Virus record (IMG/VR): IMGVR_UViG_3300017971_000004
Coordinates: 1-64,000 of that record
DNA: 64,000 nucleotides
Origin: a virus
Lineage: Duplodnaviria; Heunggongvirae; Uroviricota; Caudoviricetes
Direction: 5' to 3' (one strand)
Shown: piece by piece, positions 1 to 62,152 of the stretch
Numbering within the stretch: the stretch's first letter is position 1
Layout of the letters: every line of letters begins with the position of its first letter
Position numbers and translations under genes: made by a program
Notes under the pieces: model-generated
What the model was told of the DNA's origin: nothing
Seen by the model: the letters and a program-made list of their open reading frames with translations, nothing else
Databases searched by the model: none

Positions 1-2678
1 CGATGTTGCGCGGCGTTGTCACCTCCATCATGTTGACGCCGCTGCTCCAGGAAGTCGAAGTGGAACGTTCGCAACGGATCTGATTCCCGATGAACCGATG
101 GTTTCCGATGTTTCCAGAACCGCTGCCGCTGCCGCCCAACGAGATGAAGGTATCCGCAGCGGAGGAAGTGTAGTCGAGGTAGTTCTCCTCGATGACGCCC
201 TGCCGAGCTGCGCTCCCCAAGTAGATCTTCGCCGTCGAGGCGGCTCCGCTGGCCCCCGTTACCCGGTTACTACGAACGATGGGGCCATAAGTGGTGGTCG
301 CGTCCGGGATCCGGAAGAAGAACTGAGCGTCGCACGAGGCACTGTAGTTGTCCAGGACGCGGATCTGGTCCGCTCCCGCAGACGTGATCACGGCGGTTCC
401 GGACCCGGAGGGGGTCGAACTGAAGTTGTTGTTGCGGATCACCACCTCGTCGCAACCGCTCGCCACGTAGATGACACCCGCAGATGCTCCGGAAACGTCG
501 AACTCGCAGTTCTCGACAATTGACCCGGCAGCCCCCGAAGAGAAGTTGATCGCGTAGCTGGGCGGCGTGGCGCTCCAACCAGCACCGGTAAACTTGACAT
601 TCTCGATGTGGGACGGCGCGGCGATGGAGAAGTAGTTGTCCGCGTCGTCCTGCGTGAACCGGATCTCGGTGTCCGCCGAGGAGATCCCGATGATGTGGAT
701 GGACTGGTTGATCGAGGTCGCCGTGGTCCAGGTTATCGTGTAGGAACCCATCCCGAGCATGATCGTCGCCCCGCTGGTCGCGGTGACGATCAGGTAGCTC
801 AGGAGCTGCTCCAAACCGTTACCCGGAGGCACGTAATAGGTGCCGTCGATCTCGGACCAGGCATCCCCCGTCGTATTGGCCGTGAAGTTCGCGCCGCTCT
901 CGGGCGTGACCGCGACACCCCCCGTACTGGAAAAGGCGACGAGCGTATTGGCCGAAGTCCGCTTGATCGCTGCCGTATCCCCGGTGTCGTCGCTGTCGTA
1001 GGTCAGCGTCATCGACCCCGTGGCCGTGGCAGTCAAGACGCCTCCGTTGGCGTCGAGAGAGATGCCACCGTCGCTGTCGATGTCGATGTTACCGACATCC
1101 TGGACCGAGAAGACTCCCGAGCTGACGCTGACGCGGACAGTACCCCCAGTGGTAATCCCGAGACCTTCCGCACTGGCGAACATCGCCCAGTAGAGACCCG
1201 TCGTGGGATAATCACTGAAAGAATAAGCAGGGGCGGCAGCAGACCCTTCTGCTTCGAGCAAGATGCCTCTGCCGAGAATCTGGGCGGCTTCAGCCCCCGA
1301 TGCCGCAAATCCGCAAGCAGGAGACCCACTCACGGTCAGGTAGTACATCCCCGTAGTGGTGGCGGCACCAAAAGAATAGGAAGGCTCGCTGATGCTGCCA
1401 CTCCCGAGATGCCAAGGCTCGGTGCTCTCGTTGCGATCACCGTAGAAAGCCACCGTGGGAGAACCATCGATGTTGACACCCACGATAGCGGTCCCGTTCG
1501 TACTGTCGGCTCGCAGTACTACGGTGGCGTCCCCGGAAGTCGCGCCTACGTTGGTCGCGCGGATGGCGGTCTCGATGTTGGTCGCGGCGACGGCGTTGTA
1601 GGAATCGAGGGTGGCATTCCCAGATGCATCCACCTCCAGGACACCGTTGCCGTTCCGAAGAAGCTCGAAGATGCTACCGCTTCCAGTCGTGTCGTAATTC
1701 AACGACACTGCTGCGGCGATGTCCACGTCAAGACCACCGGCGCTGGCGTAGAGCCGAAGCGCGTCCGCGCCGGTACCGGCGGAGTTGAGGATCACCTGAT
1801 TCGCTCCGCCCCCGAGAGCTTCCAGACTCAAGCTCCGGTTGGCGGCAGTAACAGTGAAATTCGAGCCAGACGTTCCGTCGATGCTGACACCCGTGCCGTC
1901 GATGGTAACAGCTCCGGCAGCATCTACGACGATGTTTCCCGATGTCGTGGTAGACAGCGTCAAGGAGGAACCGGCCACCGTGAAGTTGGAAGCTCCACCG
2001 GCATCAAGCGTAATCGCGTCTGTGGAGTTCAGATCGATATCGCCCGCTCCCCCGGTCGAGACCTCGAAATTCTGACCGGAGACCGGTGTGAAAGTGATCT
2101 GTCCGACAGTGGAGATATTCATCCGGACGGCGGTCCCGTCCTGGAAGATGTTGAATTCACCAGTACCTGGAGAACCTACATCAAAGTGGAGATGAAGGTC
2201 ACCACCCCCACCGCTCTTGATCGTCGTATCGGTGACACCGCCCAGGAATCGGGAAGCACCGTTGACCTGGAGATCGAGCGTGTCAGAAGCGCCCCCATCG
2301 GTGTCGGCCTCGATGACGACTGAACCGATGGCGCGATAAGTCAAACGATCTATCCGAGACGTCAAGTCCAGCTCGGAACCATCGCTGCGAAGTCGAAAAT
2401 AGGAAGATCCAGTGGTAGTAAAATCTATGTCGAAGCCTTCGTTCGAGCTGACCGAATTGAGATCGGCGAGGATCGAACCCGCTCCGTTCGACTTGAGAGT
2501 GAGATCCTGTCCGGTCGCCGGCAGAACCTGCACGGCTCCGGCACTCGTCAGCTCGACCGTGCCAGAGCCGTACTTGAGGCCGGCGATCAAGGCATGATCG
2601 GCGTTCGCCAACTGCCGACGAATATTCTCGCCAGCAGAAGGCGAAGTCACCGAACCGTACAGGTACCGATCAGCCATT
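1..2678 (-). CDS. tail fibre / tailspike-like protein, partial (runs off window start)
   Basis: ATG at 2678 with AGGAG-like RBS ~8 nt upstream; reading frame stays open on minus strand to position 1, so it is absent from the ORF track (stop outside window). Gly/Ser/Thr/Asn-rich with repeated NNNFSS / IENCEFD / VIRNN-type parallel beta-helix-like motifs. Directly downstream of and co-oriented with the 2693..5404 fibre gene. Confidence 0.55.
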
Positions 2679-2692
2679 CAAGGCTCCTGCCG

Positions 2693-5404
2693 CTAGATCA
2701 GCGTCGGCTCACCGATGGTGATGACGATCTCCCGGCCCGAGCCGGTCGCCCAGCCGATCCGCTGCACCACGTCGCCCGAAGCGGACGGCGCGGTCGAAGT
2801 AGCCTCGCCCGCCGTGGTAGCCAGGTAGATCGCGTCCCCGCAAGCCCAGGCACCCACGTCCGAGGTGGCCACGGTCGCCTTGCCGCCCGACGCCACCGAG
2901 GCGGTGGCACTCTGGGCCGCGCCCACGGTGCAGACACCCACGACGAACTTCTTGCTCGCCGCGTTCGCGTCCGCGAGATCGAGGATGCCCGCCGCGTTCG
3001 CGTCGTCGAGGCAGACCACGTCGTTCGCGCTGATGCCGGCCACCGTGTCCACGACACCGGTCCACACGCCGACACCGCTGATCTCGCCCTTCAGCTCGTT
3101 CAGCGCGCCCACGATGGAGGTCGCGGTGAAACCGCTCAGCGTGGTGTCACCGGCCTCGTTGAGCGTGATGGTCGCAGCCCGGCCTCCGAGGGTCAGGTCC
3201 GCCGTCGCGCCGGTCACGGACAGTGTGGAGGCGTTCGCCACGTCGATGGTGAAGCCCGTGATACCGCTCTCGGTGAGAGCGCCGGAGCCGTCGAAGTTGA
3301 AGTAGCCGGTGTCGTCGCCGAACTGGCTCACGCCGCCGCCACGCAGGGTCAACGCGCCGGAGGGTGTGATGTCCGCGCTCACCAGAGCGGTCTCGGTGAG
3401 AGCGCCCGCGCCGTCCAGGTCGAGCTGGGCCACGCCGTCGTTCAGGTTGATGCCGCCAGTCCCGGACTGGAGATCGACCGCCGTCGCACCCGTGGAGTTG
3501 CCCACGGTGATCGTCCGGGCGGCAGCGCCCGTGCCGATGTTGATGGGCTGCGCGTTCCCGTCGTTGCCGATGCCGATGGAGCCGCCCGACGAGTTGATCT
3601 GAACCGCGCCGGAGCCGTCGAGATCGATGGTCGTGACGCCGCTGGTGCTGATCGCGCCGCTGCTCAGCTGGAACGAGGCGGTGCCGTCCTGGAGGTTGAC
3701 CGAGGTGGCGCTCGTGCTCACGCGGTTGCTGCCGCTGACCCGGAGGTTGGTGTTCTGGGTGGAATTGAGATAGAGGTTCGCATCCCCCGCGCCGATGTTC
3801 GCCGCCGAGATGGTGAAGGTCTGATCCGCTGCGTTGTTGTACTCGGAGTGGATGTCGTGACCGGTGGTCCCCGCACCAGCAAGCTTGATGCCGTAGCCGG
3901 TGCCGGCGTTGACGATGGAGAGCGCAGCGGGGTTGTTGGTGACGTCGTTCTGGGTCAGGGTGAGCGGGATGGCGTTCTCGGTGTCGTCCACCGTGATCGC
4001 CACGACATCGCCCGAGGTCTTCGGGCTCAGGACGCCAGCCGACTCCGACCAGTACGAGCTTCCCTCGGTGACCGCGTAGGTGATGGCCGCGACGAGGGAC
4101 ATCTCGCCGCCGAGAGCCGTCTCCAGGTCATCCCATTCGGAAGCGGCGTCGGAAAGGGTCCAGGACGCCGACCAAGTGGATCCCGTCCGGAAGTAGTCGT
4201 CCAACGTGAGCGTGTAGCCGTAGAGCCGTGTGAGAGACCCATTGCTGGCGTCGGCCACCTCGCCAATGGTGATCGTGCGCTGACCGCCGGATTCACTGGC
4301 CGTACCGATGTTGACAGCCGTCGAACCGTAGGCGGCAGAAGTCGAGGTGCAGATGTTGAACGCGCCGGTATCGTTGCAGTTCATGTTCACGGAACCGGTA
4401 CCGGTGTTGTTCAGGATGACGTTCCCGCTGTTGGTGGTCATGGAGAGACCCGCGCCACCATCCGCCGAGATGCTCACCCCTGCTCCCCCGATGGACAGCG
4501 CGCCCACGGCGTCGAGGGTGGCCGCGCCGGCAGAATTGATGTTGACGGTAGCACCGTCCAGGTCGAGATCCGCCACGGAGTTGATGTTGATGTCGCCCGT
4601 GGTCGTGGTCGTGATGTCGAGGTTGGCCGAATCGGAAGTGATCAGCCTGGAGCCGGCCCCTTGGAGATCGATGGCTGCCCCCGTACCGGCGTTGGAGACG
4701 ATGAGCGCGTCGGGGTTGTTGGTGACGTCGCTCTGGGTCAGCGTCAGGACCGCGATGTTCTGGGTATCGGCCACCGAGAACGCGATTGCGCCATCGCCGG
4801 AAGTGGCGGCGATGGTGTTGCCCTGCGCGTAGGCCTGCTGGAGGCTGTTGCCCGCCGAGGTGCCCGCCGTCTGCCAGGACGCGCCATTGTACCATTGGAG
4901 CGCGCCCGCGCCGTTCACCCGGATCGCACCGGTCGCCAAGTCGGCGGCAGCGTCGTCCGAGTCCGGAAGGATGAGCACCGACTCCGAATCCGCCGTGCGG
5001 TCGAAGATGATGCTCTTGTCCTGATCGACACCCATGTCCACCCGGAGGTTGACGTCGGTATCGCCGGAGGCGTGAGCCGTGCCGATGTTCACCACGTCGA
5101 CAGCGCTCACGTAGGAGCCGCCGAGGGTGATGACGTCGCCATCTCCGTTGCCGAGATCGACATCACCCTCCAAGGTGCTGGTGTCCAGCAGGGTGGTCGT
5201 ACCTTCGACCTCGAAGTTGCCCTTGACCGTCGTGAGCACGCCGGTCGAGCCGATGTCGATGGCCGTGGTGTTGGCGTCCGTGCCGATGGACATCCCACCG
5301 CTGTCAGCAGCTGTTCGTTGGATGCTGGCCGCGATCAGGGCGTCGGTCGAAATCAGATTCCTGATTTGACCGCCTTCCCTCGCCAGCGCGTACAGGTTTG
5401 CCAT
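2693..5404 (-). CDS. tail fibre protein (903 aa)
   Basis: Long G/T/S/A/N-rich low-complexity protein with internal repeats (e.g. AIPLTLTQNDVTNNPAAL... / NIAVLTLTQSDVTNNPDAL...). GAAGGAGAAGGG RBS before ATG at 5404. Fibre-like composition, no catalytic motifs. Confidence 0.6.
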   Translation of the reverse strand: MANLYALAREGGQIRNLISTDALIAASIQRTAADSGGMSIGTDANTTAIDIGSTGVLTTVKGNFEVEGTTTLLDTSTLEGDVDLGNGDGDVITLGGSYVSAVDVVNIGTAHASGDTDVNLRVDMGVDQDKSIIFDRTADSESVLILPDSDDAAADLATGAIRVNGAGALQWYNGASWQTAGTSAGNSLQQAYAQGNTIAATSGDGAIAFSVADTQNIAVLTLTQSDVTNNPDALIVSNAGTGAAIDLQGAGSRLITSDSANLDITTTTTGDININSVADLDLDGATVNINSAGAATLDAVGALSIGGAGVSISADGGAGLSMTTNSGNVILNNTGTGSVNMNCNDTGAFNICTSTSAAYGSTAVNIGTASESGGQRTITIGEVADASNGSLTRLYGYTLTLDDYFRTGSTWSASWTLSDAASEWDDLETALGGEMSLVAAITYAVTEGSSYWSESAGVLSPKTSGDVVAITVDDTENAIPLTLTQNDVTNNPAALSIVNAGTGYGIKLAGAGTTGHDIHSEYNNAADQTFTISAANIGAGDANLYLNSTQNTNLRVSGSNRVSTSATSVNLQDGTASFQLSSGAISTSGVTTIDLDGSGAVQINSSGGSIGIGNDGNAQPINIGTGAAARTITVGNSTGATAVDLQSGTGGINLNDGVAQLDLDGAGALTETALVSADITPSGALTLRGGGVSQFGDDTGYFNFDGSGALTESGITGFTIDVANASTLSVTGATADLTLGGRAATITLNEAGDTTLSGFTATSIVGALNELKGEISGVGVWTGVVDTVAGISANDVVCLDDANAAGILDLADANAASKKFVVGVCTVGAAQSATASVASGGKATVATSDVGAWACGDAIYLATTAGEATSTAPSASGDVVQRIGWATGSGREIVITIGEPTLI

Positions 5405-7343: not shown

Positions 7344-7494
7344 CACGTCCCTCCTCGCACGACTCGAACCAGTCGCCGCAGAGATCCTTCCGACAGAAGG
7401 AGCACTTCTGGTTATAACACGTCGGCGGTTGGGTTTCGTTAAGGTCGACCGATTCCTCGACCTCGATCTTCGGAACTGGCTTGCGTCTGGCCAT
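7328..7494 (-). CDS. small Cys-rich protein (55 aa)
   Basis: MARRKPVPKIEVEESVDLNETQPPTCYNQKCSFCRKDLCGDWFESCEEGRDDHAG; fills the gap between two genes, stop overlaps the KTSC gene start. Below the track length cutoff. Confidence 0.25.
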
Positions 7495-7549
7495 GTCAGC
7501 CTCCTCTTCTCAAGATACAAGAAGAGGAGCTGGCAGAAAACCGGAGATC

Positions 7550-8215
7550 CTACAGGAAGATACCTTCGATCTTCAGATCGCAGGTACCGGCGGTTCCGCT
7601 GTCGGCCCCGGCAACACCGACGTACAGCGTGGCGTTGTCGTCCACCGTGGCAATCGCCGTCGTGGTGACATCGATCTCCTTGACGATAGCCTCGCCGACA
7701 CCGACCGCCCCGAGACCCGTGAGAGCCGCAGCGTTGAGCCACTGCGTGCCGCCGGTCGAGGTTCCCAGATTGAGCGTGGCATCCCCGACCAAGGCAGTCG
7801 CGGAGCGGCAAATTGCGGTGGCGCGGAGCGGCAGGAACTTCTGGCTGCCATCACCCGGCAGGTTCACGGTCCACTCCGTGACCGCATCCTTCAGATCGAT
7901 GCCCTGGACGATGACCGAGGCGATACCCTCGGCCATGTCCGCCACGCCGTCCGAGTCCAGATCGAACAAGGTGCCGTTCTGGATCGCCGACATCTGGGAA
8001 GCAGTCAGGATGCGACCGCTCGCGTTGCCCACGCGGACCCGGATCTTGTTGTTGGTGATGAAGGTCGCACAGTCTTCGCAGAACTGCTTGTTGCCGAGCA
8101 CGTCCTTCACGTCGACGGTCGCGCTGGAAGCGCCGACGATCTTGACGTTCGGAAGACCTTCGTCCCCCGAAATGCTGATGTTCCCCGAAGTCAGACCCTC
8201 GATGTAGAGATTCAT
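7550..8215 (-). CDS. putative virion structural protein (221 aa)
   Basis: Strong AAGGAGAG RBS and an upstream TGATATACT extended -10-like element (8263..8278); A/G/T-rich beta-type composition; sits next to terminase. Confidence 0.5.
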   Translation of the reverse strand: MNLYIEGLTSGNISISGDEGLPNVKIVGASSATVDVKDVLGNKQFCEDCATFITNNKIRVRVGNASGRILTASQMSAIQNGTLFDLDSDGVADMAEGIASVIVQGIDLKDAVTEWTVNLPGDGSQKFLPLRATAICRSATALVGDATLNLGTSTGGTQWLNAAALTGLGAVGVGEAIVKEIDVTTTAIATVDDNATLYVGVAGADSGTAGTCDLKIEGIFL

Positions 8216-8314: not shown

Positions 8315-10567
8315 CTACCAGTTCGCCGGACCCCGGAAGTTCATGCCGACCATCGAGGTATCCGTGGCGACCTGGCGCTTCCGAACGGCCCGGCGCTTCT
8401 TGGTCTCGGCCAGCTCGTCGACGATGGAGTTCTGCACCAGCTGGTGGACGCCGATGTAGCAGCGGGCCAGGTCGTCCGAGTCGCGACCGCGCATCTTTCC
8501 CTTGTTGGGATTGTGGAACTTCCGCAGATCAGGAGTTCGAGAGAGCTTCAGAAGCTCCACCAGAGCCACGGAGCGGCCCTCCATCTGCTCCTGAGGCGTT
8601 CCTACGACCAGACTACCCTTGTCGGATAAACCGACCATATCGTCCGTCCTGGGGGCCAGCAGGCTCACCCTGCCGTTGTAGGTCATCCGGAGGAATCCCA
8701 TGAAGTGCTCGGGCTTGAGCGTGACCTTGGTGGCCATGATTCCCATCGTCCTGATCTGCTGGATGGTCGACTCGGAGTTCCAGCGGTCGAAGGCGATGGA
8801 GGCGATCCTGATCTTCTTGCGCAGCTGCTCGATGACATTGACCACCGAGTTGAACCAGATGTCGCGCTCGTTGGTCGGGACGATGCGCACGGCGAAATCG
8901 ATGACGGTGGCCATCATCTCGCCACGATGATCGTAGGGGATATTGCCGGACGGCATCGCCGAGAATGCGCGCATCATCCTGCGCTGCTCCTGCTGCGAGG
9001 AGATGATCATCGGCGCGTCGGCGGCGACCGCCATCCCGGATCCGAGATAAGTGCCCATGTCCTCGGCCAGGACCACGTCGAACGGGGTCACCGGCTCGAT
9101 GCGTCCACGACCCGTCCCGATCTTCGAGAGCTTGCGGTCACCGTTCTCATCCTCATCCCCCTCCTCTTCGAGGTCCTCGGCACTGATCCACTCGGGATGG
9201 GCGCAGACGAGCGCGAAGGAGTCCCAGCTCAGACCGGCGTCACCGAAAATGTAGTAGGTGTTGACCTGATCGAGCTGACAGCGGTCCAAATCGATGCCGA
9301 CGTACTGCTTGCCAGTGGCGTCGTTCAAGTAGGTTTCGGCGAAGGTGGCGATGGGCTCCCTCTCCCAGTCGATGCTCTTCCAGAACCGGAGCGGATCATC
9401 GACGTAAGGCATGTCGGCATTCGGAGGAGAGGCCCCGAAGTCGCGCTCTGCGGCGATGGGATCTTTCACGTACTCCTCGTCGAAGAGATGTCGAGGCATG
9501 TGCGGATTGAACTCCCAGGTCGCCCCCTTCCAGCCGTAGGTCTTCTTCAGCTCGCCGGCCTCGGCCTTGTAGTAGGTCTGCATGGCAGGGTCATCCTGGG
9601 CAAGCGGACTCGTGACGTTGATCATCAGGCCCAGGAACGAAGGGAGGTGGTTCAGCTCCTGCGAGGCCCTGACGGTCTTCAACGACTGGTTGAGCACGCG
9701 GTACAGCTCCTGCGCAGACCGGGTGCCCTCGGTGTCGACGAGACGCGCCCACTCATCGATGGAGGCCATGATCCTGGTCTTGCCAGCGATGCCCGCCGAG
9801 TCGGAGGCGATCCGGTTGAACCGGCACATCAGGTAACCGTCCAAGATGGCGTCGTCGTTGATACGATATTTCCACTTATCGACGGCGTTGCCGATCTGCT
9901 TCTTCTCCTCAGCCCGGACCCACTCCATGTACTTGCGAATCCACGGAGAATTGTTCCGCATTTCTCGATACTTGGCATAGATGGTCTGAGCTGCCTGAGT
10001 CGCAGTCGATGCGGCGAAGGTCACCTCGAACCACTCGGATCTCTCCTGTTTGAGCAGCCGCTGGAGCGCACCCCTGCTGTCAACGCCTCGGGTGATGAGG
10101 AAGTGCTCGAAGTAGCCTCCAATGTGTGCGCCTGTGAAGCTCTTGCCCGAGCGCATGCCGGCGATGACGATCATCTCGTTGTACGGCAACAGGATGGCGT
10201 CTTCGTAGAACTCGCGCTGGGTGCTGCGGCAGCGGGGGCAGACGAAGTCCTGCTCCGACTCATTCCAGACGAGCAGAGTCTCCGACTCCAGGTAGAGCCG
10301 ACTCTTGCCCCAACAATCGATGTCCTCCGGCTTCATCGAGTTGCAGATAGGGCAGCGCAGGTTGAAGACGTCGCGCAGGATCTGATACTGGCGACTGTGA
10401 TCGAACGTGCTCGGAACATTCCAGTAGTCGATACCGGTAATCCACTCAATGATGTTCGGAGCCGGCCTCCGCAGATATTCAACATCGATGTCACGCTCGC
10501 GGCTCTTGCCTTTGATGACGCCGTCGATTCGCGACGTCATGCGGTCGATGAACTCGTGATTACTCAT
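8315..10567 (-). CDS. terL: terminase large subunit (750 aa)
   Basis: Walker A VIAGMRSGKSF; N-terminal Cys4 (CPICN...CPRC); C-terminal acidic nuclease-type region (IFGDAGLSWDSFALVCAH). Size and order (ATPase then nuclease) typical of TerL. Confidence 0.8.
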   Translation of the reverse strand: MSNHEFIDRMTSRIDGVIKGKSRERDIDVEYLRRPAPNIIEWITGIDYWNVPSTFDHSRQYQILRDVFNLRCPICNSMKPEDIDCWGKSRLYLESETLLVWNESEQDFVCPRCRSTQREFYEDAILLPYNEMIVIAGMRSGKSFTGAHIGGYFEHFLITRGVDSRGALQRLLKQERSEWFEVTFAASTATQAAQTIYAKYREMRNNSPWIRKYMEWVRAEEKKQIGNAVDKWKYRINDDAILDGYLMCRFNRIASDSAGIAGKTRIMASIDEWARLVDTEGTRSAQELYRVLNQSLKTVRASQELNHLPSFLGLMINVTSPLAQDDPAMQTYYKAEAGELKKTYGWKGATWEFNPHMPRHLFDEEYVKDPIAAERDFGASPPNADMPYVDDPLRFWKSIDWEREPIATFAETYLNDATGKQYVGIDLDRCQLDQVNTYYIFGDAGLSWDSFALVCAHPEWISAEDLEEEGDEDENGDRKLSKIGTGRGRIEPVTPFDVVLAEDMGTYLGSGMAVAADAPMIISSQQEQRRMMRAFSAMPSGNIPYDHRGEMMATVIDFAVRIVPTNERDIWFNSVVNVIEQLRKKIRIASIAFDRWNSESTIQQIRTMGIMATKVTLKPEHFMGFLRMTYNGRVSLLAPRTDDMVGLSDKGSLVVGTPQEQMEGRSVALVELLKLSRTPDLRKFHNPNKGKMRGRDSDDLARCYIGVHQLVQNSIVDELAETKKRRAVRKRQVATDTSMVGMNFRGPANW

Positions 10568-10848
10568 GCCGGCTCCAGGTAAAAGTTGTTGACCAAGTGC
10601 TTTCCCGCGCTGGTCTTCATCTTCAGAGCGGAGATGTCGTCGGGAAGCTTGTAGGGGATCCCGTCCACGTAGAACAAACGCCCCTTCAGCTTCATCATCT
10701 TCGCCAACGGGACAGTCATCAGCGCCACGGCTATCGGCTCGCCCTCCTCGTAGGAGCTGTCATCGACGAGAACGACGCGGCCCACGGGAAGCCCCTTCTG
10801 GTCGCGCAGGACGTGATCATGCCGAAACATCTTGGGCAGCCCGTTCAT
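10564..10848 (-). CDS. hypothetical protein (94 aa)
   Basis: Minus ORF, stop overlaps terL start (ATGA). Confidence 0.4.
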   Translation of the reverse strand: MNGLPKMFRHDHVLRDQKGLPVGRVVLVDDSSYEEGEPIAVALMTVPLAKMMKLKGRLFYVDGIPYKLPDDISALKMKTSAGKHLVNNFYLEPA

Positions 10849-11645
10849 TTGATGCCATACCTCACGGAGATAGCGTTGAGAACTTCCGGAATGGCCTGCT
10901 TCATCGTGTCACCGACTCGACTCCGGATAATCTGCGCCACCTGATCGGGCAACCGTGACCCTGGCAGCTCTCGTACCAGGAGCCTTTGAATTTCCTCCGC
11001 CACCGATTCGATGCGGGTCACAGTGGACTCGACAATCATCTCGACGGCCTCCTGGAGGGCCGTCCCTGCGACTTTGCTGCTGGATTCGATGGCCGCAGCT
11101 TCCTTCTTGAGCTTGAGCAGATCGGCAATGAGCTTCTGGAACGTGGTTATCTCGTTGAGATCCACTTTGGCCTCGCCACCGGCCTCGACGGCCTCGACCT
11201 CCTTGGTGGTCATCTGACGATTGAAGCCGTGGAGCCGCTGCTCGGCTGCGGCGATGAGCGCCTTCATCCGCTTGAAGTCGTCGACCTCCTCGGAGAGAGC
11301 CTGGCGCTCGACGATGTTGCGATACGCGGCCCGATGGATCTGGATGCGCCTGCTGCTCGGGTCCTGGATGGCGAAGCCGACGTTGATCGCCGAATCGACT
11401 TCTTCCAAGTTTGAGACATGTTTCTTGTTGAAGTGGTGATAGAAGTTGGCCTTGGTGAAGAGCGTGATCTTCCGATCTTCCGGCAGCAGCTCGTTCTTGA
11501 TCTCCAGGCGACCGTTCAGCCACCTGACGATCTGAGCATACGGCTGTTCCTCGTCGAAGACGCGCCTGTGGGTCTCGCGCCAGAGGTTCGCGTCCAAGTC
11601 GATCAGGCCACAAAGTTTGCAGCGCTCGCTGAGTATCACTCCCAT
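10845..11645 (-). CDS. putative DNA-binding protein / candidate terminase small subunit (266 aa)
   Basis: Immediately upstream of terL; N-terminal CxxC plus basic segment (CKLCGLIDLDANLWRETHRR), central coiled coil. Position-based guess only. Confidence 0.3.
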   Translation of the reverse strand: MGVILSERCKLCGLIDLDANLWRETHRRVFDEEQPYAQIVRWLNGRLEIKNELLPEDRKITLFTKANFYHHFNKKHVSNLEEVDSAINVGFAIQDPSSRRIQIHRAAYRNIVERQALSEEVDDFKRMKALIAAAEQRLHGFNRQMTTKEVEAVEAGGEAKVDLNEITTFQKLIADLLKLKKEAAAIESSSKVAGTALQEAVEMIVESTVTRIESVAEEIQRLLVRELPGSRLPDQVAQIIRSRVGDTMKQAIPEVLNAISVRYGIK

Positions 11646-11666
11646 ACTGATAATATACCAGACAGG

Positions 11667-12197
11667 TCACGGGTTGTTCTGAGTCCGCTGAGCGGTCTTC
11701 TGAGCCGCCCGGTTCGCGGCCTCCTCGATGATCTTCTCCATCGAGGCCGGAGGATGCTCGATCTTCTGTTCGAGCTTCTCCAACTTCTCCCCGTGAGCTT
11801 CGAGATGGAAGGCCACGCCGGCCAGATACCAGACGAAGCCGGCTCCGGTCGTAACCAGGAAGAGGAGCATCGCGGCGAGACCTCGGATGTACCAGCGATA
11901 GAGCTTTTTGCTCTCCTCGACACCGACCTTCGCGACTTCCCGGATGGTCTCCGTGTTCTCGCGAATGCCCTTCTTGTTGGCTGCGATGCTAGATTCCATC
12001 GCTTCAAAAGCTCCTTCCCGGAGACATTGGTGGCCTTCGCCGATCTTAGTCTTCAGGTCTTCGATGTCGCCATCGACCCGCTTGAACTCGGACTTGACAA
12101 CAGCGCGGTCGGACTTGTCCTTCTCGATCCTGTCGAGGCGCTTGTCTAGCCAGGAGGGGATCTTGGCCGTGAAACTAGTGCGGGCTTCGTCCGTCAT
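11667..12197 (-). CDS. membrane protein (176 aa), start moved to internal ATG (MTDEARTSF)
   Basis: Track ORF N-terminus runs into the low-GC non-coding island. C-terminal TM helix LAAMLLFLVTTGAGFVWYLAGVAF followed by a coiled coil. Confidence 0.4.
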   Translation of the reverse strand: MTDEARTSFTAKIPSWLDKRLDRIEKDKSDRAVVKSEFKRVDGDIEDLKTKIGEGHQCLREGAFEAMESSIAANKKGIRENTETIREVAKVGVEESKKLYRWYIRGLAAMLLFLVTTGAGFVWYLAGVAFHLEAHGEKLEKLEQKIEHPPASMEKIIEEAANRAAQKTAQRTQNNP

Positions 12198-12738
12198 CTG
12201 CTTCCATCCCGAGTAGGCTGCTCCACGGTATAGAATAGCACGACTCTTTTTGGAAAATCTAAGGACGCGACTCCCCCGAGCCAATCCGAGCCAATTCGAT
12301 CCAAGTTGAAAAAACCCTCTGATATACCCACCAACGATATCGAAAATCGAAGAACGAAATACATCGGGTTTGGAAAGACTTCCAAAATTCAACAAGATTT
12401 GCCAAGTTCTAACAACTCGATCCAATCTTGTTGTCTCACGACCATCCTGATCTGTATGAATCCAAGTCTACCAAGGCAAAGAATTCGGCATAGAGTTTCG
12501 AGAATCCTGACCGGAGTGAAGAATTCTGGAGCGTAGCGTAAGAATTCTGAACGTAGGGAAGGATTCGAAGAAACTCCTGCGGAAAACTTCGTTAACAGGT
12601 ACACTTTGGCGGTAATAATTCCGTTGAAGCTTTGAATCTTGGTGCCAGGAATCCCATCGATCCAAGACTTCCGGATGGCGGCGCATCGTATTACGATGTT
12701 ACTGAGGTTAGATCGTTAATATACAGGAACGGATCTTC
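12198..12738. other. 540-bp lower-GC non-coding island with iteron-like repeats
   Basis: Direct repeat CCGAGCCAAT x2 (12278..12297). TCGATCCAA at 12296, 12417 and 12657 (spacing ~120 and ~240 bp). 21-bp tandem AAGAATTCTG(G/A)A(G/A)CGTAG x2 (12519..12560), plus a third GAATTC at 12481. Only short, oddly composed ORFs on either strand. Confidence 0.5.
12714..12727 (-). promoter_or_regulatory. phage promoter-like motif CTGTATATTAAC
   Basis: Member of the recurring minus-strand motif family (see findings); sits at the upstream edge of the non-coding island. Confidence 0.35.
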
Positions 12739-12936
12739 CTACCGATCTTCTTTTTCGAAAAGTTGGATATGCTCGATGGCGAGCTGGATATGTACGGCTA
12801 TCTGGTTCTTGCAGTCCCCGTGAAGGACGCCGTCGAGGGCTTCGTGGAGATGTTTACGAGCTTTCTTCAACAGGTAGGATGGTCGCTCCCCAGTGACATC
12901 GTTCTTGGATCCATTCTTCGACGTATTCGATGACAT
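12739..12936 (-). CDS. hypothetical protein (65 aa)
   Basis: AGAGGAAG RBS 5 nt before ATG 12936. Overlaps 12854..13039 in another frame, so one of the two may be spurious. Confidence 0.3.
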   Translation of the reverse strand: MSSNTSKNGSKNDVTGERPSYLLKKARKHLHEALDGVLHGDCKNQIAVHIQLAIEHIQLFEKEDR

Positions 12937-13039
12937 CTTCCTCTATTAAGGTGCCGTCCTCTGCGAAGCAGCCCTCCGGCACCTCGACCTCCTCGGCGCA
13001 GCCGAACTTGAAATCACCGATCTCGATGTCCATCCACAT
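12854..13039 (-). CDS. hypothetical acidic protein (61 aa)
   Basis: Start moved to the MWMD ATG, directly after the stop of 13041..13460. Conflicts with 12739..12936. Confidence 0.25.
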   Translation of the reverse strand: MWMDIEIGDFKFGCAEEVEVPEGCFAEDGTLIEEDVIEYVEEWIQERCHWGATILPVEESS

Positions 13040-13040
13040 C

Positions 13041-13460
13041 TTAACTTTCTTGCGCCCGTTCACGAGATCCTCCCTTCTTGCCGCCATGTTTGTTCTGGGC
13101 CTGCTTGAGCAGCCAGTCCTCTCTTCTGCGGGCTTCTTCCTCCAGGTCGGCCTGGCAGGCCACGACCTCCCTCCAGAGCTTCAGGGCGGCTGTGACGCCC
13201 TCGTAGCGAAGGGTGTTGTCCGCGTTCGTAGGACCGCCTTCTCTCAGAACGAGAGACAGGCCGTAAGCCAGCTCGGCAGAGATCGTGTCCCGAATCTCGG
13301 TGAAGATGTCCTCTTCGCGGATGCCGGCACCGGAGAAGACCTCGATGATGTCTCGGTAGGTGATCTTGGTCGGGTCGATCTCGTTGGTTTCGGGGTTCTT
13401 GAGATGGTCACGCTCCAGGAAAGCGGAGACGACCTTGACGAGCTTCGATTCGCTGCTCAT
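13041..13460 (-). CDS. hypothetical protein (139 aa)
   Basis: Minus ORF with coding-like composition; no recognizable domain. Confidence 0.45.
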   Translation of the reverse strand: MSSESKLVKVVSAFLERDHLKNPETNEIDPTKITYRDIIEVFSGAGIREEDIFTEIRDTISAELAYGLSLVLREGGPTNADNTLRYEGVTAALKLWREVVACQADLEEEARRREDWLLKQAQNKHGGKKGGSRERAQES

Positions 13461-27954: not shown

Positions 27955-28029
27955 TGGTGACCCCAGCCGGAATCGAACCGGCGTTCCCAGATCGAAAGTC
28001 TGGTAGCCTAACCGCTAGCTGATGGGGCC
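27955..28029 (-). tRNA. tRNA-Glu (anticodon UUC), CCA encoded
   Basis: Reverse complement GGCCCCA-TC-AGCT-AGCGGTTA-GGCT-A-CCAGA-CTTTCGA-TCTGG-GAAC-GCCGG-TTCGATT-CCGGC-TGGGGTC-A-CCA folds as a canonical cloverleaf (7-bp acceptor with one G-U, canonical T-loop, anticodon loop C-U-UUC-G-A). Confidence 0.7.
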
Positions 28030-58952: not shown

Positions 58953-58967
58953 GTCATGGACCGTGCT

Positions 58968-59730
58968 GTCGAGACTTCTAACCCGTCTCGCAGGGATTGA
59001 AGGATCGAACTCCCAAGATCTGGAGGCCCGCGATGCCGAAGTCGAGACTTCTAACCCGTCTCGCAGGGATTGAAGGGCGGTGCGGGTCCTATCATCGCTA
59101 CTTGGGACATCGGTGTCGAGACTTCTAACCCGTCTCGCAGGGATTGAAGGAAATGGAGTCCATCGAACCCAACATCGTCGAAATGTCGAGACTTCTAACC
59201 CGTCTCGCAGGGATTGAAGGTAACTAGACTGAGAATAGCTTGGTTATGTGAAATGCGTCGAGACTTCTAACCCGTCTCGCAGGGATTGAAGAAACGTGTT
59301 GAAAACGTGCTACGAGCCGGACAACATGTCGAGACTTCTAACCCGTCTCGCAGGGATTGAAGGGAAGCTACCGTCGCCTACGCGACCAGCGAGCCCATCT
59401 GTCGAGACTTCTAACCCGTCTCGCAGGGATTGAAGGATCGATAGCCGGGCGGCGCACGCCTCCGTTGCGCTGTCGAGACTTCTAACCCGTCTCGCAGGGA
59501 TTGAAGGCGGAGCGATCTCGCCGGGCAGTTCGAGCCACAACTCCGGGGGTCGAGACTTCTAACCCGTCTCGCAGGGATTGAAGGCGGTTTTCCGCCTCGG
59601 TACCCGAGGTCGGATCAAGATGTCGAGACTTCTAACCCGTCTCGCAGGGATTGAAGGGAGTGAAAAGATCGACGCCCTCTCGTGATGCTGCTTCGTCGAG
59701 ACTTCTAACCCGTCTCGCAGGGATTGAAGG
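58968..59730 (-). CRISPR. CRISPR array, 11 x 36-bp repeats, 10 spacers (34-41 bp)
   Basis: Plus-strand repeat GTCGAGACTTCTAACCCGTCTCGCAGGGATTGAAGG at 58968, 59041, 59115, 59185, 59257, 59328, 59401, 59472, 59549, 59622, 59695. All are identical except repeat 5, whose last G is A. Repeat contains a 6-bp hairpin CGAGAC/GTCTCG. Strand call is minus because the hairpin then sits at the 3' end of the repeat next to the spacer, and the array is co-directional with the cas12-like gene. Confidence 0.9.
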
Positions 59731-59911: not shown

Positions 59912-62110
59912 CTAAGACTCTAGAGGAGCCGGGCCTTCGCCGTTCCGCTCCTCTTCTTCCTTTTTCCGCTTCCGAACGACTTTCTTCCCCTTGTTCCGGT
60001 TCTTCTGAGCGTCCGACATCTCCCGCACGAGCACGCTGCCATCGGCTATCTTGACGATCTTGTTCTCTCGGTACAGCCGCATCATGTTCCGGGCCGCGTT
60101 CGCGTCCTGGTCCCAGGTGCGACCGCACTTCTCGCAGGTGTGCTCCACCTTCGGAATCGGGTCCCAGGGCGCATCGTGCCCGCAGTCGAAGCAGCGCTGG
60201 GTGGTCATGGCCGGGTTCACCCAGACGACCGTGCCGCCACGCGAGAGGAACGCCTGGATGAGCGTCTCGCGGAACTCGGAGAGCGCCGCTTCTTTCTGCT
60301 GCCGCCGCGCCCGCCGGATCTCGACCTTGTCGCTTCCCGGAAGCTCATGCTTCTGCATCTTGCTCAGATCGATATTTTCGAGCACGAGGACCTTGAACTC
60401 CCGCGCCAGCGCAGAGTCCACGCACCGGTAGTGATCCTCGCGCTGCAACAGCGACTTGCGCCGCTGGCTCTCCTGCCACTGCCAGAGGTGCCGGTCGCCG
60501 CCTTCGAGACGCCGCGCCTCCTCGTCGTAGACGCCTCGCTGCCAGCGGTCCAGGATCTCGAAGCCCCGTTCGTCCCCCTTCCACCGCGACTCCCTCCAGA
60601 GCCGCAGCAGCCACGCGAACCGCTTGGGGGCCTCCCACTTGGCGATGCCCCGGGTCGACTCCCTGAACCACTTCGGCAGCGCGCTGCGCCGCGCCTTGAT
60701 CCACGCCCGAAGCTCGGCCAGCATTTCGTTCTGCTTCAGCTGCCGGGTCTGCTGGAGCGTTTCGACGCGCTGGAACCCGGCGACCACCTTCGACGACATG
60801 CACTGCTCGTGGCCCACCTCACCCTCGTCCGGGTTCTTAAGATAGGCGGCGTACTCTCGATCATCGATCAGGTACGCGATCCGGATTCGGGGCACCTCCA
60901 CCTCCTGCTTCCGCAGCCCCCGCTTCTTCCGCTTCCTACCCATCTCCACCGTCTCGGTCCCTCGCTTGCGCCAACCGATATCGACGGCCACGACCCCGCG
61001 CCCCGTCCCGTAGTCCTTGTGACAATCCCCCGAATCCACCTCCAGATGGAGGTGCAACGTCCACCGGAGCCGGGTGGTGATCTTCTCCCGCTTCACGACC
61101 GCCCACTTGATGCGCGCCTTCGGAGGCAGCGGACGATGCATGATCACTGGGAACTCCGCCCAGATGGGATCACGACCGCTCTTTCCGCCGCTGCCGACCC
61201 GGATTCGAGCGATGCCGCGTCGACGTATCCTCCGATGCCGGAGCACCTCCTCCCCCATCTCGGGCTCCATGTCCAGCTGGAACATGGTGTTCTGGCAGTT
61301 CAGGACGCGCTCGACGGAATCCCCCTTCTGGAGTTCGACGCCGAAGATCACCTCATCATCGAGACTCTTGAACTTGGGGTCTCGCTCGACCCAGATGCCC
61401 TTCTCCTCGTTCCACTTCCAGAGGCTGTCCCTCAGCGACATCCGAGAAGCCTCCCGCGCCCTGTTCACCAGGAGATAGGTCCCCCAGTAGAGCTTCCCCA
61501 GCTCCTCGTCCGTCTCGGTCACCTTCTCGTAGGTTCCATCCTTGAATTGCACGTAGGCTTCGTGCAACTCCTGCTTCTCCCGCTGCTGGGCTTCCGCGCG
61601 CCGAGCCTTCAACTCGTCGCTTAACTCCACCTTCTTCCTCGGCTCCTCCTTCCCCGGCTCGTCGTCCGACTCGGAACCGTTCTTCAACTCCCGCAGCTTT
61701 GCCCACGCCTCGTTCTTGAGATCGCGCACCTCCCGGAGACGCATCCGCTCCTGCGGGGTGTCGGACCGGGATCGAGACCTCTTGCGCTTCGTCCTGAGAT
61801 CCTCCTGCATCTCCCGGAGGAGCTTTTCGAGACGCTTGACCTCGGTGAAGGCTTCCCGCATCTCGTCGCTCGCCCCCATCAGGTCCAGAGTGTGCTGCTG
61901 GTAGATTTCCCGAAGAGTCGCCCGCAGACGACGCTCCGCCTCCACACACTGGTTGTTGTACCGCTGCGACAGGACGATCTGCTTCTCCACCAGTTCGGCG
62001 TTCTTCGTCGGACCGAACGGCAGCCCATACACATAGGCGAGCTGGGGACCTCGGACCCTCGGCTTGCCCGGCTTCTTCTTCCGTTTCGTCTTCGATGTCT
62101 TGCGCGTCAT
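59912..62110 (-). CDS. cas12: Cas12-family (TnpB-derived) type V CRISPR effector candidate (732 aa)
   Basis: RuvC-I GVVAVDIGWRKRG; RuvC-II VLVLENIDLSKMQK; Zn ribbon CFDCGHDAPW...HTCEKCGRT followed by RuvC-III WDQDANAARNMM (compare ISDra2 TnpB AGVDVGI / IGTEHLKPDNM / CHDCG...CPNCGETHDRDENAALNI). N-terminal TnpB-like segment QLAYVYGLPFGPTKNAELVEKQIVLSQRYNNQC. A K/R/E-rich coiled-coil insertion of ~300 aa gives Cas12 size. Directly abuts the CRISPR array. GGGAGA RBS plus the CTTGTATATTAAC motif upstream. Confidence 0.75.
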   Translation of the reverse strand: MTRKTSKTKRKKKPGKPRVRGPQLAYVYGLPFGPTKNAELVEKQIVLSQRYNNQCVEAERRLRATLREIYQQHTLDLMGASDEMREAFTEVKRLEKLLREMQEDLRTKRKRSRSRSDTPQERMRLREVRDLKNEAWAKLRELKNGSESDDEPGKEEPRKKVELSDELKARRAEAQQREKQELHEAYVQFKDGTYEKVTETDEELGKLYWGTYLLVNRAREASRMSLRDSLWKWNEEKGIWVERDPKFKSLDDEVIFGVELQKGDSVERVLNCQNTMFQLDMEPEMGEEVLRHRRIRRRGIARIRVGSGGKSGRDPIWAEFPVIMHRPLPPKARIKWAVVKREKITTRLRWTLHLHLEVDSGDCHKDYGTGRGVVAVDIGWRKRGTETVEMGRKRKKRGLRKQEVEVPRIRIAYLIDDREYAAYLKNPDEGEVGHEQCMSSKVVAGFQRVETLQQTRQLKQNEMLAELRAWIKARRSALPKWFRESTRGIAKWEAPKRFAWLLRLWRESRWKGDERGFEILDRWQRGVYDEEARRLEGGDRHLWQWQESQRRKSLLQREDHYRCVDSALAREFKVLVLENIDLSKMQKHELPGSDKVEIRRARRQQKEAALSEFRETLIQAFLSRGGTVVWVNPAMTTQRCFDCGHDAPWDPIPKVEHTCEKCGRTWDQDANAARNMMRLYRENKIVKIADGSVLVREMSDAQKNRNKGKKVVRKRKKEEEERNGEGPAPLES

Positions 62111-62137: not shown

Positions 62138-62152
62138 GTTAATATACAAGAA
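62138..62152 (-). promoter_or_regulatory. phage promoter-like motif CTTGTATATTAAC upstream of the cas12-like gene
   Basis: 27 nt upstream of ATG 62110, in the 80-bp intergenic gap. Confidence 0.4.

What the first reader, a model, noticed from the sequence alone, without database searches (positions are those of the whole stretch)
12198..12738. Iteron-rich 540-bp non-coding island upstream of the terminase cluster
The region has lower GC, no credible ORF (track ORFs 12306..12536, 12389..12604 and 12468..12686 have non-coding composition), and several repeat sets. There is a tandem CCGAGCCAAT x2. TCGATCCAA occurs three times with ~120/240-bp phasing and contains GATC. There is a 21-bp tandem AAGAATTCTG(G/A)A(G/A)CGTAG x2, with three GAATTC sites within 70 bp. 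It is flanked by the CTGTATATTAAC motif. Phased iterons next to the packaging genes suggest a pac/cos recognition region or a replication origin; a long structured 5' leader or ncRNA is an alternative.
Basis: seen in the sequence. Interest (0 to 1): 0.5.

Follow-up and report, generated by a model that had tools for sequence, protein, structure and literature searches.

The report
Conserved hairpin leader before phage terminase genes
The 540-bp gap is a real non-coding control region at the head of a huge phage's DNA-packaging genes; its core is a phage promoter followed by a long hairpin kept by compensating mutations in related phages, and the "iterons" are mostly the two arms of that hairpin.

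Summary
The region (12198-12738) is non-coding and 45% GC in a 59.5% GC phage. It lies between two minus-strand genes, directly upstream of a 176-aa / 266-aa / 94-aa / large-terminase block.

- CTGTATATTAAC belongs to a strand-specific promoter-like motif. GTATATT occurs 8 times, all on the coding strand.
- The "21-bp tandem with EcoRI sites" is the two arms of a ~100-nt imperfect hairpin (12484-12584).
- Relatives with 58-72% identical terminase have a low-GC island at the same place. Most of its sequence is unalignable, but the module order is conserved: promoter, a box 29 nt downstream, the hairpin, then a 5'UTR.
- The hairpin has 13 of 17 pairs with compensatory changes and invariant loops. 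It is single-copy and has no Rfam match.
- The short TTGG(A/C)TCG(A/G) repeats are real but weak.

Best reading (about 0.4): a transcribed, structured leader of the packaging operon.

Main rival: a DNA-level element, either a single-strand initiation signal or origin, or pac. The complementary strand folds better and its apex matches the GCGNAGC/CCGAAGG "mini-hairpin DNA" consensus.

GC skew, DnaA boxes and GATC density give no support for an origin.

The parts
12715..12726 (-). Promoter-like motif CTGTATATTAAC (core GTATATT 12718-12724) at the 5' edge of the island, 13 nt after the stop of the upstream gene
   Evidence: Six matches with at most 2 mismatches, all on the minus strand, against 0.45 expected. 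GTATATT occurs 8 times, all on the minus strand, against 0.5 expected. Five of the other seven copies sit about 4-25 nt upstream of a start codon, four of them with a visible Shine-Dalgarno sequence. The motif is conserved at the same place in L076, L077, L066, L056, L001 and L012.
12677..12697 (-). Conserved box ATCGTAATACGAT-GCGCCGCC (palindrome ATCG-N5-CGAT plus a GC-rich tail)
   Evidence: CGATGC starts exactly 29 nt after GTATATT in W, L076, L077 and L066. The box is also present in L001, L006, L012 and L056. Positions flanking the palindrome centre change together: TAATA in W becomes TGGCA in L066.
12586..12622 (-). Conserved block GGAATTATTACCGCCAAAGTGTACCTGTTAACGAAG just upstream of the hairpin (a T-rich CCTGTTTTT tract in more distant relatives)
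   Evidence: Aligned in W, L076, L077 and L078. YCTGTT plus a T-run precedes the hairpin in L009, L014 and L066.
12484..12584 (.). Long imperfect hairpin. It has 7-8-bp helices separated by TC/TC internal loops on the coding strand, which are GA/GA on the plus strand. The arms AGAATTCT lie at 12520-12527 and 12541-12548. The apex GCGTAGC lies at 12531-12537 on the plus strand.
   Evidence: Stability:
- RNA fold is -34.0 kcal/mol, z -5.2, on the minus strand and -45.1 kcal/mol on the plus strand.
- DNA fold gives z -4.4 (plus) and -2.9 (minus).
- It is the most structured 110-nt segment of the plus strand in the whole window.

Conservation:
- Homologous hairpins in relatives show 13 of 17 pairs with compensatory changes.
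- The covariance model hits only the syntenic sites.
12390..12433 (-). Second hairpin with perfect 10-bp arms (CAACAAGATT / AATCTTGTTG) enclosing one TTGGATCGA copy
12276..12305 (-). Three tandem 10-bp units, TTGGATCGAA TTGGCTCGGA TTGGCTCGGG, 80-108 nt upstream of the ATG. Dispersed copies of TTGGATCGA lie at 12417-12425 and 12657-12665.
   Evidence: Similar TTGGCnnGG tandems lie at the same distance from the ATG in L078 and L009, and related motifs occur in L066.
12319..12328 (-). Second, weaker promoter-like motif GGTATATCAG
   Evidence: not conserved in the alignment
12198..12246 (-). Most conserved stretch of the island: the 5'UTR of the 176-aa gene (GTCGTGCTATTCTATACC...GGAGCAGCCTACTCGGGATGGAAGCAG-ATG). 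It contains a small stem, GAG...CUC, which is GCG...CGC in L076.
8315..12197 (-). Downstream co-directional block: 176-aa membrane protein (11667-12197), 266-aa protein (10845-11645, with its own GGTATATTAT motif at 11650-11659), 94-aa protein (10564-10848) and large terminase (8315-10567)
   Evidence: GC3 is 0.77-0.84. TerL matches phrog_17415 at 4.6e-41. The block is syntenic in relatives.

Best explanation
The island is the transcribed, non-coding control region at the head of the phage's packaging-gene block.

Proposed mechanism:
- A phage promoter (GTATATT type, a single -10-like element) at its 5' edge starts a transcript near 12708.
- That transcript runs about 510 nt through a conserved box, a long hairpin and a conserved 5'UTR into the 176-aa gene and on towards the 266-aa, 94-aa and large-terminase genes.
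- The hairpin, whose loops are invariant and whose stems covary, is the recognition or processing site of a regulator that sets the amount or timing of packaging-gene expression.
- The short TTGG(A/C)TCG(A/G) repeats are probably extra binding sites for a protein.

Shown:
- The region is non-coding.
- Its position is conserved.
- The promoter-like motif is strand-specific and recurrent.
- The order and spacing of the modules are conserved.
- The hairpin covaries and is single-copy.
- The 5'UTR is conserved.

Inferred:
- The motif is an active promoter.
- The element acts as RNA.
- What binds it.
For: Context:
- The region is non-coding and has no tRNA or Rfam family.
- All neighbouring genes are on the same strand, so the island is transcribed in the sense direction in any case.

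Promoter and box:
- GTATATT occurs 8 times, all on the coding strand. Five of the other seven copies sit just upstream of a start codon, four of them with a visible Shine-Dalgarno sequence.
- The same motif lies at the 5' edge of the island in six lineages.
- The box sits at a fixed 29 nt after the motif in four lineages.

Hairpin:
- z is -5.2 in W and -4.7 to -5.4 in L009 and L014.
- On alignment A7, 94% of cells are paired, 13 of 17 pairs have changes on both sides, none is one-sided, and the loops are invariant.
- The covariance model finds it only at the syntenic site, in the sense orientation, in 8 loci representing about 5 lineages, within 475 kb. That includes a lineage that was not used to build the model, L056 at E 4e-8.

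5'UTR and linkage:
- The last ~50 nt before the ATG are the best conserved part and carry a small covarying stem next to the ribosome-binding site.
- The island stays attached to the first gene of the packaging block even where the 176-aa gene is absent, in L066 and L056.
Against: Strand asymmetry:
- The hairpin is more stable on the opposite (plus) strand in 8 of 8 lineages, with both RNA and DNA parameters.
- On the coding strand its loops are destabilising pyrimidine mismatches and a UUC triloop.
- On the other strand they are tandem G.A loops, and the apex matches GCGNAGC or CCGAAGG, the 'mini-hairpin DNA' consensus known from single-strand initiation sites (PMC13037366).

Other points:
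- No G.U pair occurs among the confident homologues.
- Apart from the hairpin and the UTR stem, the leader has little conserved RNA structure.
- Relatives L009, L010 and L014 carry large DNA-type iteron arrays in the same island.
- No transcription data are available.
Confidence: 0.4

Rival explanations
1. DNA-level replication element. When the low-GC island is unwound, helped by the adjacent promoter, the plus strand extrudes the hairpin as single-stranded DNA. Its GNA-capped apex serves as a single-strand initiation signal for a phage primase, or as part of an origin. The short repeats, and the large arrays in relatives, bind an initiator.
For: Hairpin strand preference:
- The plus strand folds better in 8 of 8 lineages.
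- The apex is GCGTAGC, GCGAAGC or CCGAAGG in 8 of 9 lineages. CCGAAGG is the same mini-hairpin sequence as the apex of RSF1010 ssiA, and GCGNAGC is the consensus type that also covers N4 early promoters; the related GCGNNAGC type caps the G4/St-1 complementary-strand origins.
- Covariation is strictly Watson-Crick.

Surroundings:
- The island is low-GC, with a T-rich tract next to the hairpin.
- True iteron arrays exist in L009, L011, L014 and L010: 9 copies of a 12-nt-spaced unit and 22-bp perfect palindromes.
- Repeats in W lie at 10-bp spacing.
Against: - There is no GC-skew inflection at 12.2-12.7 kb.
- There are no DnaA boxes and no GATC enrichment.
- The flanking genes have no replication annotation, and the DNA-metabolism genes lie 20-35 kb away.
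- The repeats in W are only 9-10 bp and few.
- The large arrays are missing from W and its closest relatives.
- No primase gene was identified here.
Confidence: 0.25
2. Packaging recognition site (pac or cos). The small terminase binds the short phased repeats and/or the dyad, and cutting or packaging starts here.
For: - The island always lies directly upstream of the first gene of the block that ends in the large terminase.
- Short repeats lie at 10-bp spacing.
- The 266-aa protein next to it has a conserved N-terminal CxxC...H motif plus a coiled coil. That would suit a DNA-binding small terminase, but this is inference only.
- Two independent assemblies (L006, L047) end at the same nucleotide 330 nt upstream of their island, and L011 breaks inside its repeat array.
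Against: - No reads are available, so termini are untested.
- The ~200-kb contigs of relatives run straight through the island.
- The contig ends fall inside a gene, and strain variation or repeats explain them as well.
- The arms of the dyad vary while the spacers are invariant, which is the opposite of what a protein-bound duplex palindrome shows.
- No small terminase was identified.
Confidence: 0.15
3. A separate small non-coding RNA gene. A ~200-230-nt RNA runs from the promoter to the hairpin, which ends or stabilises it. The packaging genes use their own promoters further down.
For: - In L006 the equivalent hairpin is followed by a run of 7 T and looks like an intrinsic terminator.
- The promoter, box and hairpin are the conserved parts, and the stretch after the hairpin is variable.
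- A second promoter-like motif lies at 12319-12328, and another lies before the 266-aa gene.
Against: - No T-run follows the hairpin in W, L076, L077, L078, L009 or L014.
- The terminator scan finds none on the minus strand.
- There is no Rfam match.
- The sequence between box and hairpin is poorly conserved.
Confidence: 0.1
4. Remnant of a mobile element (an IS200/IS605-type end or palindrome-associated element, or REP-like repeat) or neutral junk at a recombination hotspot.
For: - TnpB-type genes are around. L005 has an IS605 OrfB between the 176-aa and 266-aa homologues, and the window has a Cas12m-like gene.
- Such elements use single-strand DNA hairpins.
- The island sequence evolves fast.
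Against: - The hairpin is single-copy in 475 kb. The only extra exact-pattern hit in IMG/VR is a chance match without complementarity.
- It is kept at the same place, with compensatory changes, in lineages whose terminases are only 58-72% identical.
- The L005 TnpB is not in the island.
Confidence: 0.05

Closest known systems
Long structured 5' leaders or processing hairpins of phage late and early operons (lambda pR'-6S-tR' region, HK022 put RNAs, T7 RNase III sites). Recalled from established knowledge, not tested here.
   Same: A promoter is followed by conserved RNA-foldable elements ahead of a block that contains a possible lysis-type membrane protein and the terminase. The hairpin is long with internal loops. 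A conserved element sits at a fixed short distance from the promoter.
   Different: There is no terminator T-run except in one relative, no sequence or Rfam relationship, the regulator is unknown, and the hairpin is more stable on the non-transcript strand.
Mini-hairpin DNA sites: G4/St-1/alpha3 complementary-strand origins, RSF1010 oriV ssiA (CCGAAGG), N4 virion-RNAP early promoters (GCGGAGC) (PMC13037366)
   Same: The apex on the plus strand is GCGTAGC, GCGAAGC or CCGAAGG, closed by C-G with a GNA triloop. RSF1010 oriV also combines iterons, an AT-rich stretch and ssi hairpins.
   Different: Here the mini-hairpin caps a much longer (50-100 nt) helix with periodic GA/GA loops. The genome is a ~190-kb double-stranded phage. 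No RepB'-type primase or N4-type RNAP was found in the window. Single-strandedness is unproven.
Iteron origins (lambda ori, plasmid oriV) and repeat-containing packaging sites (lambda cosB R sites, P1 pac hexamers)
   Same: A low-GC non-coding region with short direct repeats, some at helical spacing, next to the terminase genes. Relatives have real iteron arrays.
   Different: In the window the repeats are 9-10 bp in 3+2 copies. There is no initiator gene, no DnaA boxes, no GATC clustering and no skew signal, and termini are not mapped.
T4-type late promoters (a single TATAAATA-like -10 element without a -35)
   Same: A single short AT-rich element, strictly on the coding strand, lies a short distance upstream of ribosome-binding sites of several genes.
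   Different: The sequence differs (c/tGTATATTaa). The sigma factor or RNA polymerase that reads it is unknown, and activity is untested.

Membership tests
Iteron-type replication origin | Three or more direct repeats of about 17-22 bp at helical phasing | tested here: not met
   In the window there are only 9-10-bp motifs: 3 tandem and 2 dispersed. The 21-bp 'tandem' is the two hairpin arms. The feature is met only in relatives L009, L011, L014 and L010.
Iteron-type replication origin | Adjacent AT-rich unwinding region | tested here: inconclusive
   The island is 45% GC against 59.5%. A T-rich tract lies next to the hairpin in relatives. No discrete unwinding element could be defined.
Iteron-type replication origin | Initiator gene next to or around the repeats; DnaA boxes | tested here: not met
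   Flanking proteins have no Pfam or PHROG replication hit. There is no TTWTNCACA in the island.
Iteron-type replication origin | GC-skew change at the site | tested here: not met
   There is no inflection at 12.2-12.7 kb. The test is weak, because nearly all genes share one strand and only 64 kb is seen.
pac/cos packaging site | Lies in or just upstream of the terminase genes | tested here: met
   It lies 1.6-2.2 kb upstream of TerL, at the head of the co-directional block, and is syntenic in relatives.
pac/cos packaging site | Physical DNA ends or a coverage step map to it | not testable with these tools
   No reads are available. Contig ends near the island are ambiguous.
Single-strand initiation signal / mini-hairpin DNA | Hairpin capped by GCGNAGC or CCGAAGG on one strand | tested here: met
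   The plus-strand apex is GCGTAGC in the window, GCGAAGC in L076, L077, L066 and L001, and CCGAAGG in L009, L078 and L056. The consensus is taken from PMC13037366.
Single-strand initiation signal / mini-hairpin DNA | Cognate primase or hairpin-reading polymerase, and use as single-stranded DNA | not tested
   Only 30 proteins of the window were scanned against PHROGs (10 of them also against Pfam); a helicase was found, but no primase or N4-type RNAP. The biochemistry is not testable here.
Cis-regulatory RNA leader | Promoter on the same strand upstream, with no ORF | tested here: met
Cis-regulatory RNA leader | Conserved secondary structure with covariation | tested here: met
   The hairpin has 13 of 17 pairs compensatory, and there is a small stem in the 5'UTR. 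The rest of the leader has none.
Cis-regulatory RNA leader | Signal specific to the transcript strand (better fold, G.U pairs) | tested here: not met
   The opposite strand folds better in 8 of 8 lineages. There are no G.U pairs in A7.
Any Rfam family | Covariance-model match | tested here: not met
   No match even at E <= 10.
Intrinsic terminator | GC-rich hairpin followed by a T-run | tested here: not met
   There is none on the minus strand. Only L006 has a T-run after its hairpin.
Dispersed palindromic repeat (REP, MITE, IS200/605 end) | Many copies per genome | tested here: not met
   One copy per locus in 475 kb. The IMG/VR pattern scan gives only the known lineage plus one chance hit.

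The most novel reading that the evidence does not exclude
The hairpin works as single-stranded DNA on the strand opposite the genes. It would be a primase-loading or initiation signal, or a hairpin promoter, capped by a GNA mini-hairpin and stiffened by periodic tandem G.A pairs. That would mark a replication (or transcription) start of a ~190-kb phage from which synthesis would proceed co-directionally with almost all genes. Such a signal is so far known only from small single-stranded phages, RSF1010-type plasmids and N4.
Probability: 0.2. Interest if true: 0.7.

Novelty: new variant of a known kind. Interest (0 to 1): 0.45.

Why it matters
Almost nothing is known about how huge, uncultivated phages start packaging-gene expression, replication or packaging.

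This island offers:
- a concrete promoter motif for the phage;
- a conserved cis element with a clear structure, namely 7-bp helices, invariant TC/TTC loops and covarying stems. This could be used to find the same control point in related genomes and to fish for its binding protein.

If the element turns out to act as single-stranded DNA, it would extend mini-hairpin initiation signals to large double-stranded phages.

Tried and rejected
- Dam/GATC cluster as in P1 pac or oriC. GATC is not enriched: 6 in the island against a mean of 4.6 per 541 nt, and the results in relatives are mixed.
- A small gene or leader peptide starting at the conserved ATG in the box (12686). An ORF is open in W, L076 and L077, but it is read in different frames across identical nucleotides, is cut short in L066, has no Shine-Dalgarno sequence and has GC3 0.49 (frames read).
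- An IS605/TnpB remnant. The TnpB in L005 lies between the 176-aa and 266-aa homologues, not in the island, and the hairpin is single-copy.
- Long-range pairing of the 5' box with the ribosome-binding site. The partners differ between relatives.
- A sigma-70-like promoter on the plus strand at 12592-12619. Its hexamers are kept in L076 and L077 but not in L078, and it points away from the hairpin.
- A pile-up of contig ends 2.2-2.7 kb upstream of TerL. Gene order differs among those contigs, so this is uninformative.
- Direct DNA similarity to known phages: none. BLASTN of the island against relatives gave nothing, and nhmmer gave only a weak hit.
- Identifying the 266-aa protein as a small terminase: no Pfam, PHROG or PDB match.
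- The exact look-up of the window's own proteins found no source contig.
- One fold script timed out.

Full report
**Observation**

The window is a 59.5% GC phage sequence in which nearly all genes lie on the minus strand.

The finding (12198-12738) is the gap between two minus-strand genes:
- a 65-aa gene, 12739-12936, whose stop is at 12739-12741;
- a 176-aa membrane-protein gene, 11667-12197, whose ATG is at 12197.

Downstream follow a 266-aa gene, a 94-aa gene and the large terminase at 8315-10567 (phrog_17415, 4.6e-41).

The gap is 45% GC. Its ORFs have GC3 of 0.43-0.49 against 0.75-0.85 in real genes. None of their peptides is conserved in related loci.

- TCGATCCAA occurs three times in 64 kb, all in the island.
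- Five of the six TTGGMTCGR matches are in the island.
- Short-repeat content exceeds shuffles.

There is no tRNA and no Rfam family, even at E 10.

**The flanking motif is a promoter-like signal**

- CTGTATATTAAC has six matches with at most 2 mismatches, all on the minus strand, against 0.45 expected.
- Its core GTATATT has eight matches, all on the minus strand, against 0.5 expected.
- Five of the other seven copies lie 4-25 nt upstream of a start codon, and four of those have a visible ribosome-binding site. These genes include the 266-aa gene and a Cas12m-like gene.
- In the island the motif sits 13 nt after the upstream stop codon and 518 nt before the next real start. Transcription from it would therefore cross the whole island.

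**Relatives**

No known phage record matches the DNA. The terminase is distantly related to those of jumbo phages.

Scans of IMG/VR and of metagenomes with the terminase gave about 70 loci. A protein search with the 266-aa protein gave three closer relatives, L076, L077 and L078.

The 176 / 266 / 94 / TerL block is syntenic in these loci. In L066 and L056 the block lacks the 176-aa gene.

Where the upstream DNA is held, relatives that keep this block show a low-GC non-coding island of 400-1100 nt directly upstream of its first gene (nine lineages examined).

Sequence similarity across the island is almost nil beyond the closest relatives. nhmmer finds only a weak syntenic match to L009 and L011.

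**A conserved module order**

Reading the coding strand:
1. The GTATATT motif.
2. Exactly 29 nt later in W, L076, L077 and L066 (22-32 nt in L056, L001 and L012), the box ATCG-N5-CGATGCGCCGCC. The bases next to the palindrome centre change together.
3. A variable stretch, then a conserved or T-rich block.
4. A long hairpin.
5. A variable stretch of about 250-300 nt that carries TTGGCnnGG-type repeats. These are tandem at 10-bp spacing, 80-110 nt before the ATG, in W, L078 and L009.
6. A well conserved ~50-nt 5'UTR with a small covarying stem next to the ribosome-binding site.

**The hairpin**

In the window, 12484-12584 folds into one ~100-nt imperfect hairpin: -34 kcal/mol, z -5.2. Its inner arms are the two AAGAATTCT 'tandem' units.

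The equivalents in L009, L014 and L001 are also strongly structured. In each relative the island holds the strongest local fold within +/-1.5 kb.

A gap-free alignment of L076, L077, L078 and L014 gives 17 pairs:
- 94% of cells are paired.
- 13 pairs have changes on both sides and none has a change on one side only.
- No shuffle reaches the observed values for percentage paired, pairs and cells with two-sided changes, or covariation score, and the slid controls collapse.
- All loop columns (TCA, TC, TTC, TC, YTC) are invariant.

A covariance model built from this alignment was run over 475 kb. It hits only the syntenic site, always in the sense orientation:
- the four seed sequences;
- L056, a lineage not used to build the model (E 4e-8);
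- L009, L011 and L057 (E 6e-7);
- two half-length hits in the window (12501-12526 and 12540-12566). The window's version is therefore a duplicated, extended form.

The element is single-copy. A strict pattern scan of IMG/VR finds only the known lineage plus one chance hit.

Arms that vary while the spacers stay fixed and non-palindromic is the reverse of what a protein-bound duplex palindrome shows. The element is therefore a folded single strand, either RNA or DNA.

**Which strand?**

This is unresolved and matters for function.
- The opposite (plus) strand folds better in 8 of 8 lineages, with RNA and with DNA parameters.
- The plus-strand segment 12481-12590 is the most structured 110-nt segment of the whole window, z -4.2.
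- On that strand the internal loops are tandem G.A.
- The apex is GCGTAGC in the window, GCGAAGC in four lineages and CCGAAGG in three. These match the 'mini-hairpin DNA' consensus reviewed in PMC13037366. That review finds CCGAAGG at the apex of RSF1010 ssiA, GCGGAGC at phage N4 early promoters, and the related GCGNNAGC type at the G4/St-1 complementary-strand origins.
- On the coding strand the same positions are pyrimidine mismatches and a UUC triloop.

**Tests of the origin and pac ideas**

Tests that gave no support:
- GC skew shows no change at the island.
- There are no DnaA boxes.
- GATC is not enriched.
- The flanking genes have no replication annotation. The DNA-metabolism genes lie at 33-47 kb, while tail and terminase genes surround the island.

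Points that keep a DNA role alive:
- Relatives L009, L011, L014 and L010 carry large true iteron arrays at the far side of their islands: nine 12-nt-spaced units and 22-bp perfect palindromes. In L009 and L057 these lie next to a 95-aa protein of phrog_13625. The window and its closest relatives lack both.
- Two assemblies end at the same nucleotide 330 nt upstream of the L006/L047 island, and L011 breaks inside its array. However, ~200-kb contigs run through the island, so this is weak.

**Verdict**

Calling the repeats phased iterons overstates them.

The best-supported description is a conserved, transcribed control region at the head of the packaging genes: a promoter, a fixed-distance box, a covarying hairpin and a conserved 5'UTR. 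I take an RNA-level leader function as most likely (about 0.4), because sense transcription is close to certain and the order of modules fits.

The strand asymmetry of the hairpin keeps a single-strand-DNA initiation role or origin (about 0.25) and pac (about 0.15) as serious rivals.

The hairpin family is not in Rfam, and I know of no described equivalent. I rate it a new variant of a known kind, of moderate interest.

Noticed in passing
window 58960-59725 (minus strand) and 59912-62110 (minus strand): A CRISPR array of about 12 copies of the 36-nt repeat CTTCAATCCCTGCGAGACGGGTTAGAAGTCTCGAC with ~36-37-nt spacers. It lies directly downstream of a 732-aa protein with a TnpB/RuvC C-terminus, whose best solved relative is Cas12m (23vw_A, E 3.5e-47). 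The gene is preceded by the promoter-like motif TTGTATATTAAC at 62138-62149. This is a phage-borne type V CRISPR system.
   Followed up: partly
L009 615-850 (also L057 2160-2400, L011 1-130, L014 2400-2500, L010 2640-2830): Large arrays of iterons in the relatives' islands. There are 9 copies of a 23-nt unit built on TACCTTGAACCC, several at 12-nt spacing, and perfect 22-bp palindromes TACCTTGAAGACCTTCAAGGTA. In L009 and L057 they start right after a 95-aa gene of phrog_13625 (unknown function). They are absent from the window.
   Followed up: partly
window 12739-12936 and 12854-13087 (minus strand): The 65-aa and 77-aa ORFs overlap by 83 nt in different frames. The same overlap is seen in relatives L006 and L047. 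Possible explanations are overlapping genes or a programmed frameshift.
   Followed up: no
L005 345-1550: A TnpB (IS605 OrfB; PF01385 3e-23, PF07282 2.8e-23) is inserted between the homologues of the 176-aa and 266-aa genes in a relative with an 81% identical terminase. The GGTATATT motif before the 266-aa gene is retained.
   Followed up: partly
L006 position 1 and L047 position 1: A 139,861-nt contig and a 7,571-nt contig from different samples end at exactly the same nucleotide, inside a gene, 330 nt upstream of their island. This could be a genome end, a repeat boundary or a strain-variation breakpoint.
   Followed up: no
window 40652-40724 (minus strand): ARAGORN calls a tRNA-Cys with anticodon ACA rather than the usual GCA. 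A tRNA-Glu (TTC) lies at 27955-28029.
   Followed up: no
window 10845-11645 (minus strand): The 266-aa protein family next to the terminase has invariant C9, C12, W22, H26, H71 and H76 (a zinc-finger-like N-terminus) and a coiled-coil centre. It has no Pfam, PHROG or PDB match. It is a candidate small terminase or DNA-binding protein.
   Followed up: partly
window about 44521-44630 (minus strand), 7441-7550 (plus strand) and 2481-2710 (both strands): These are the other strongest local folds in the window after GC correction, with z -5.4, -4.1 and about -3.3 to -4.3. They were not examined.
   Followed up: no
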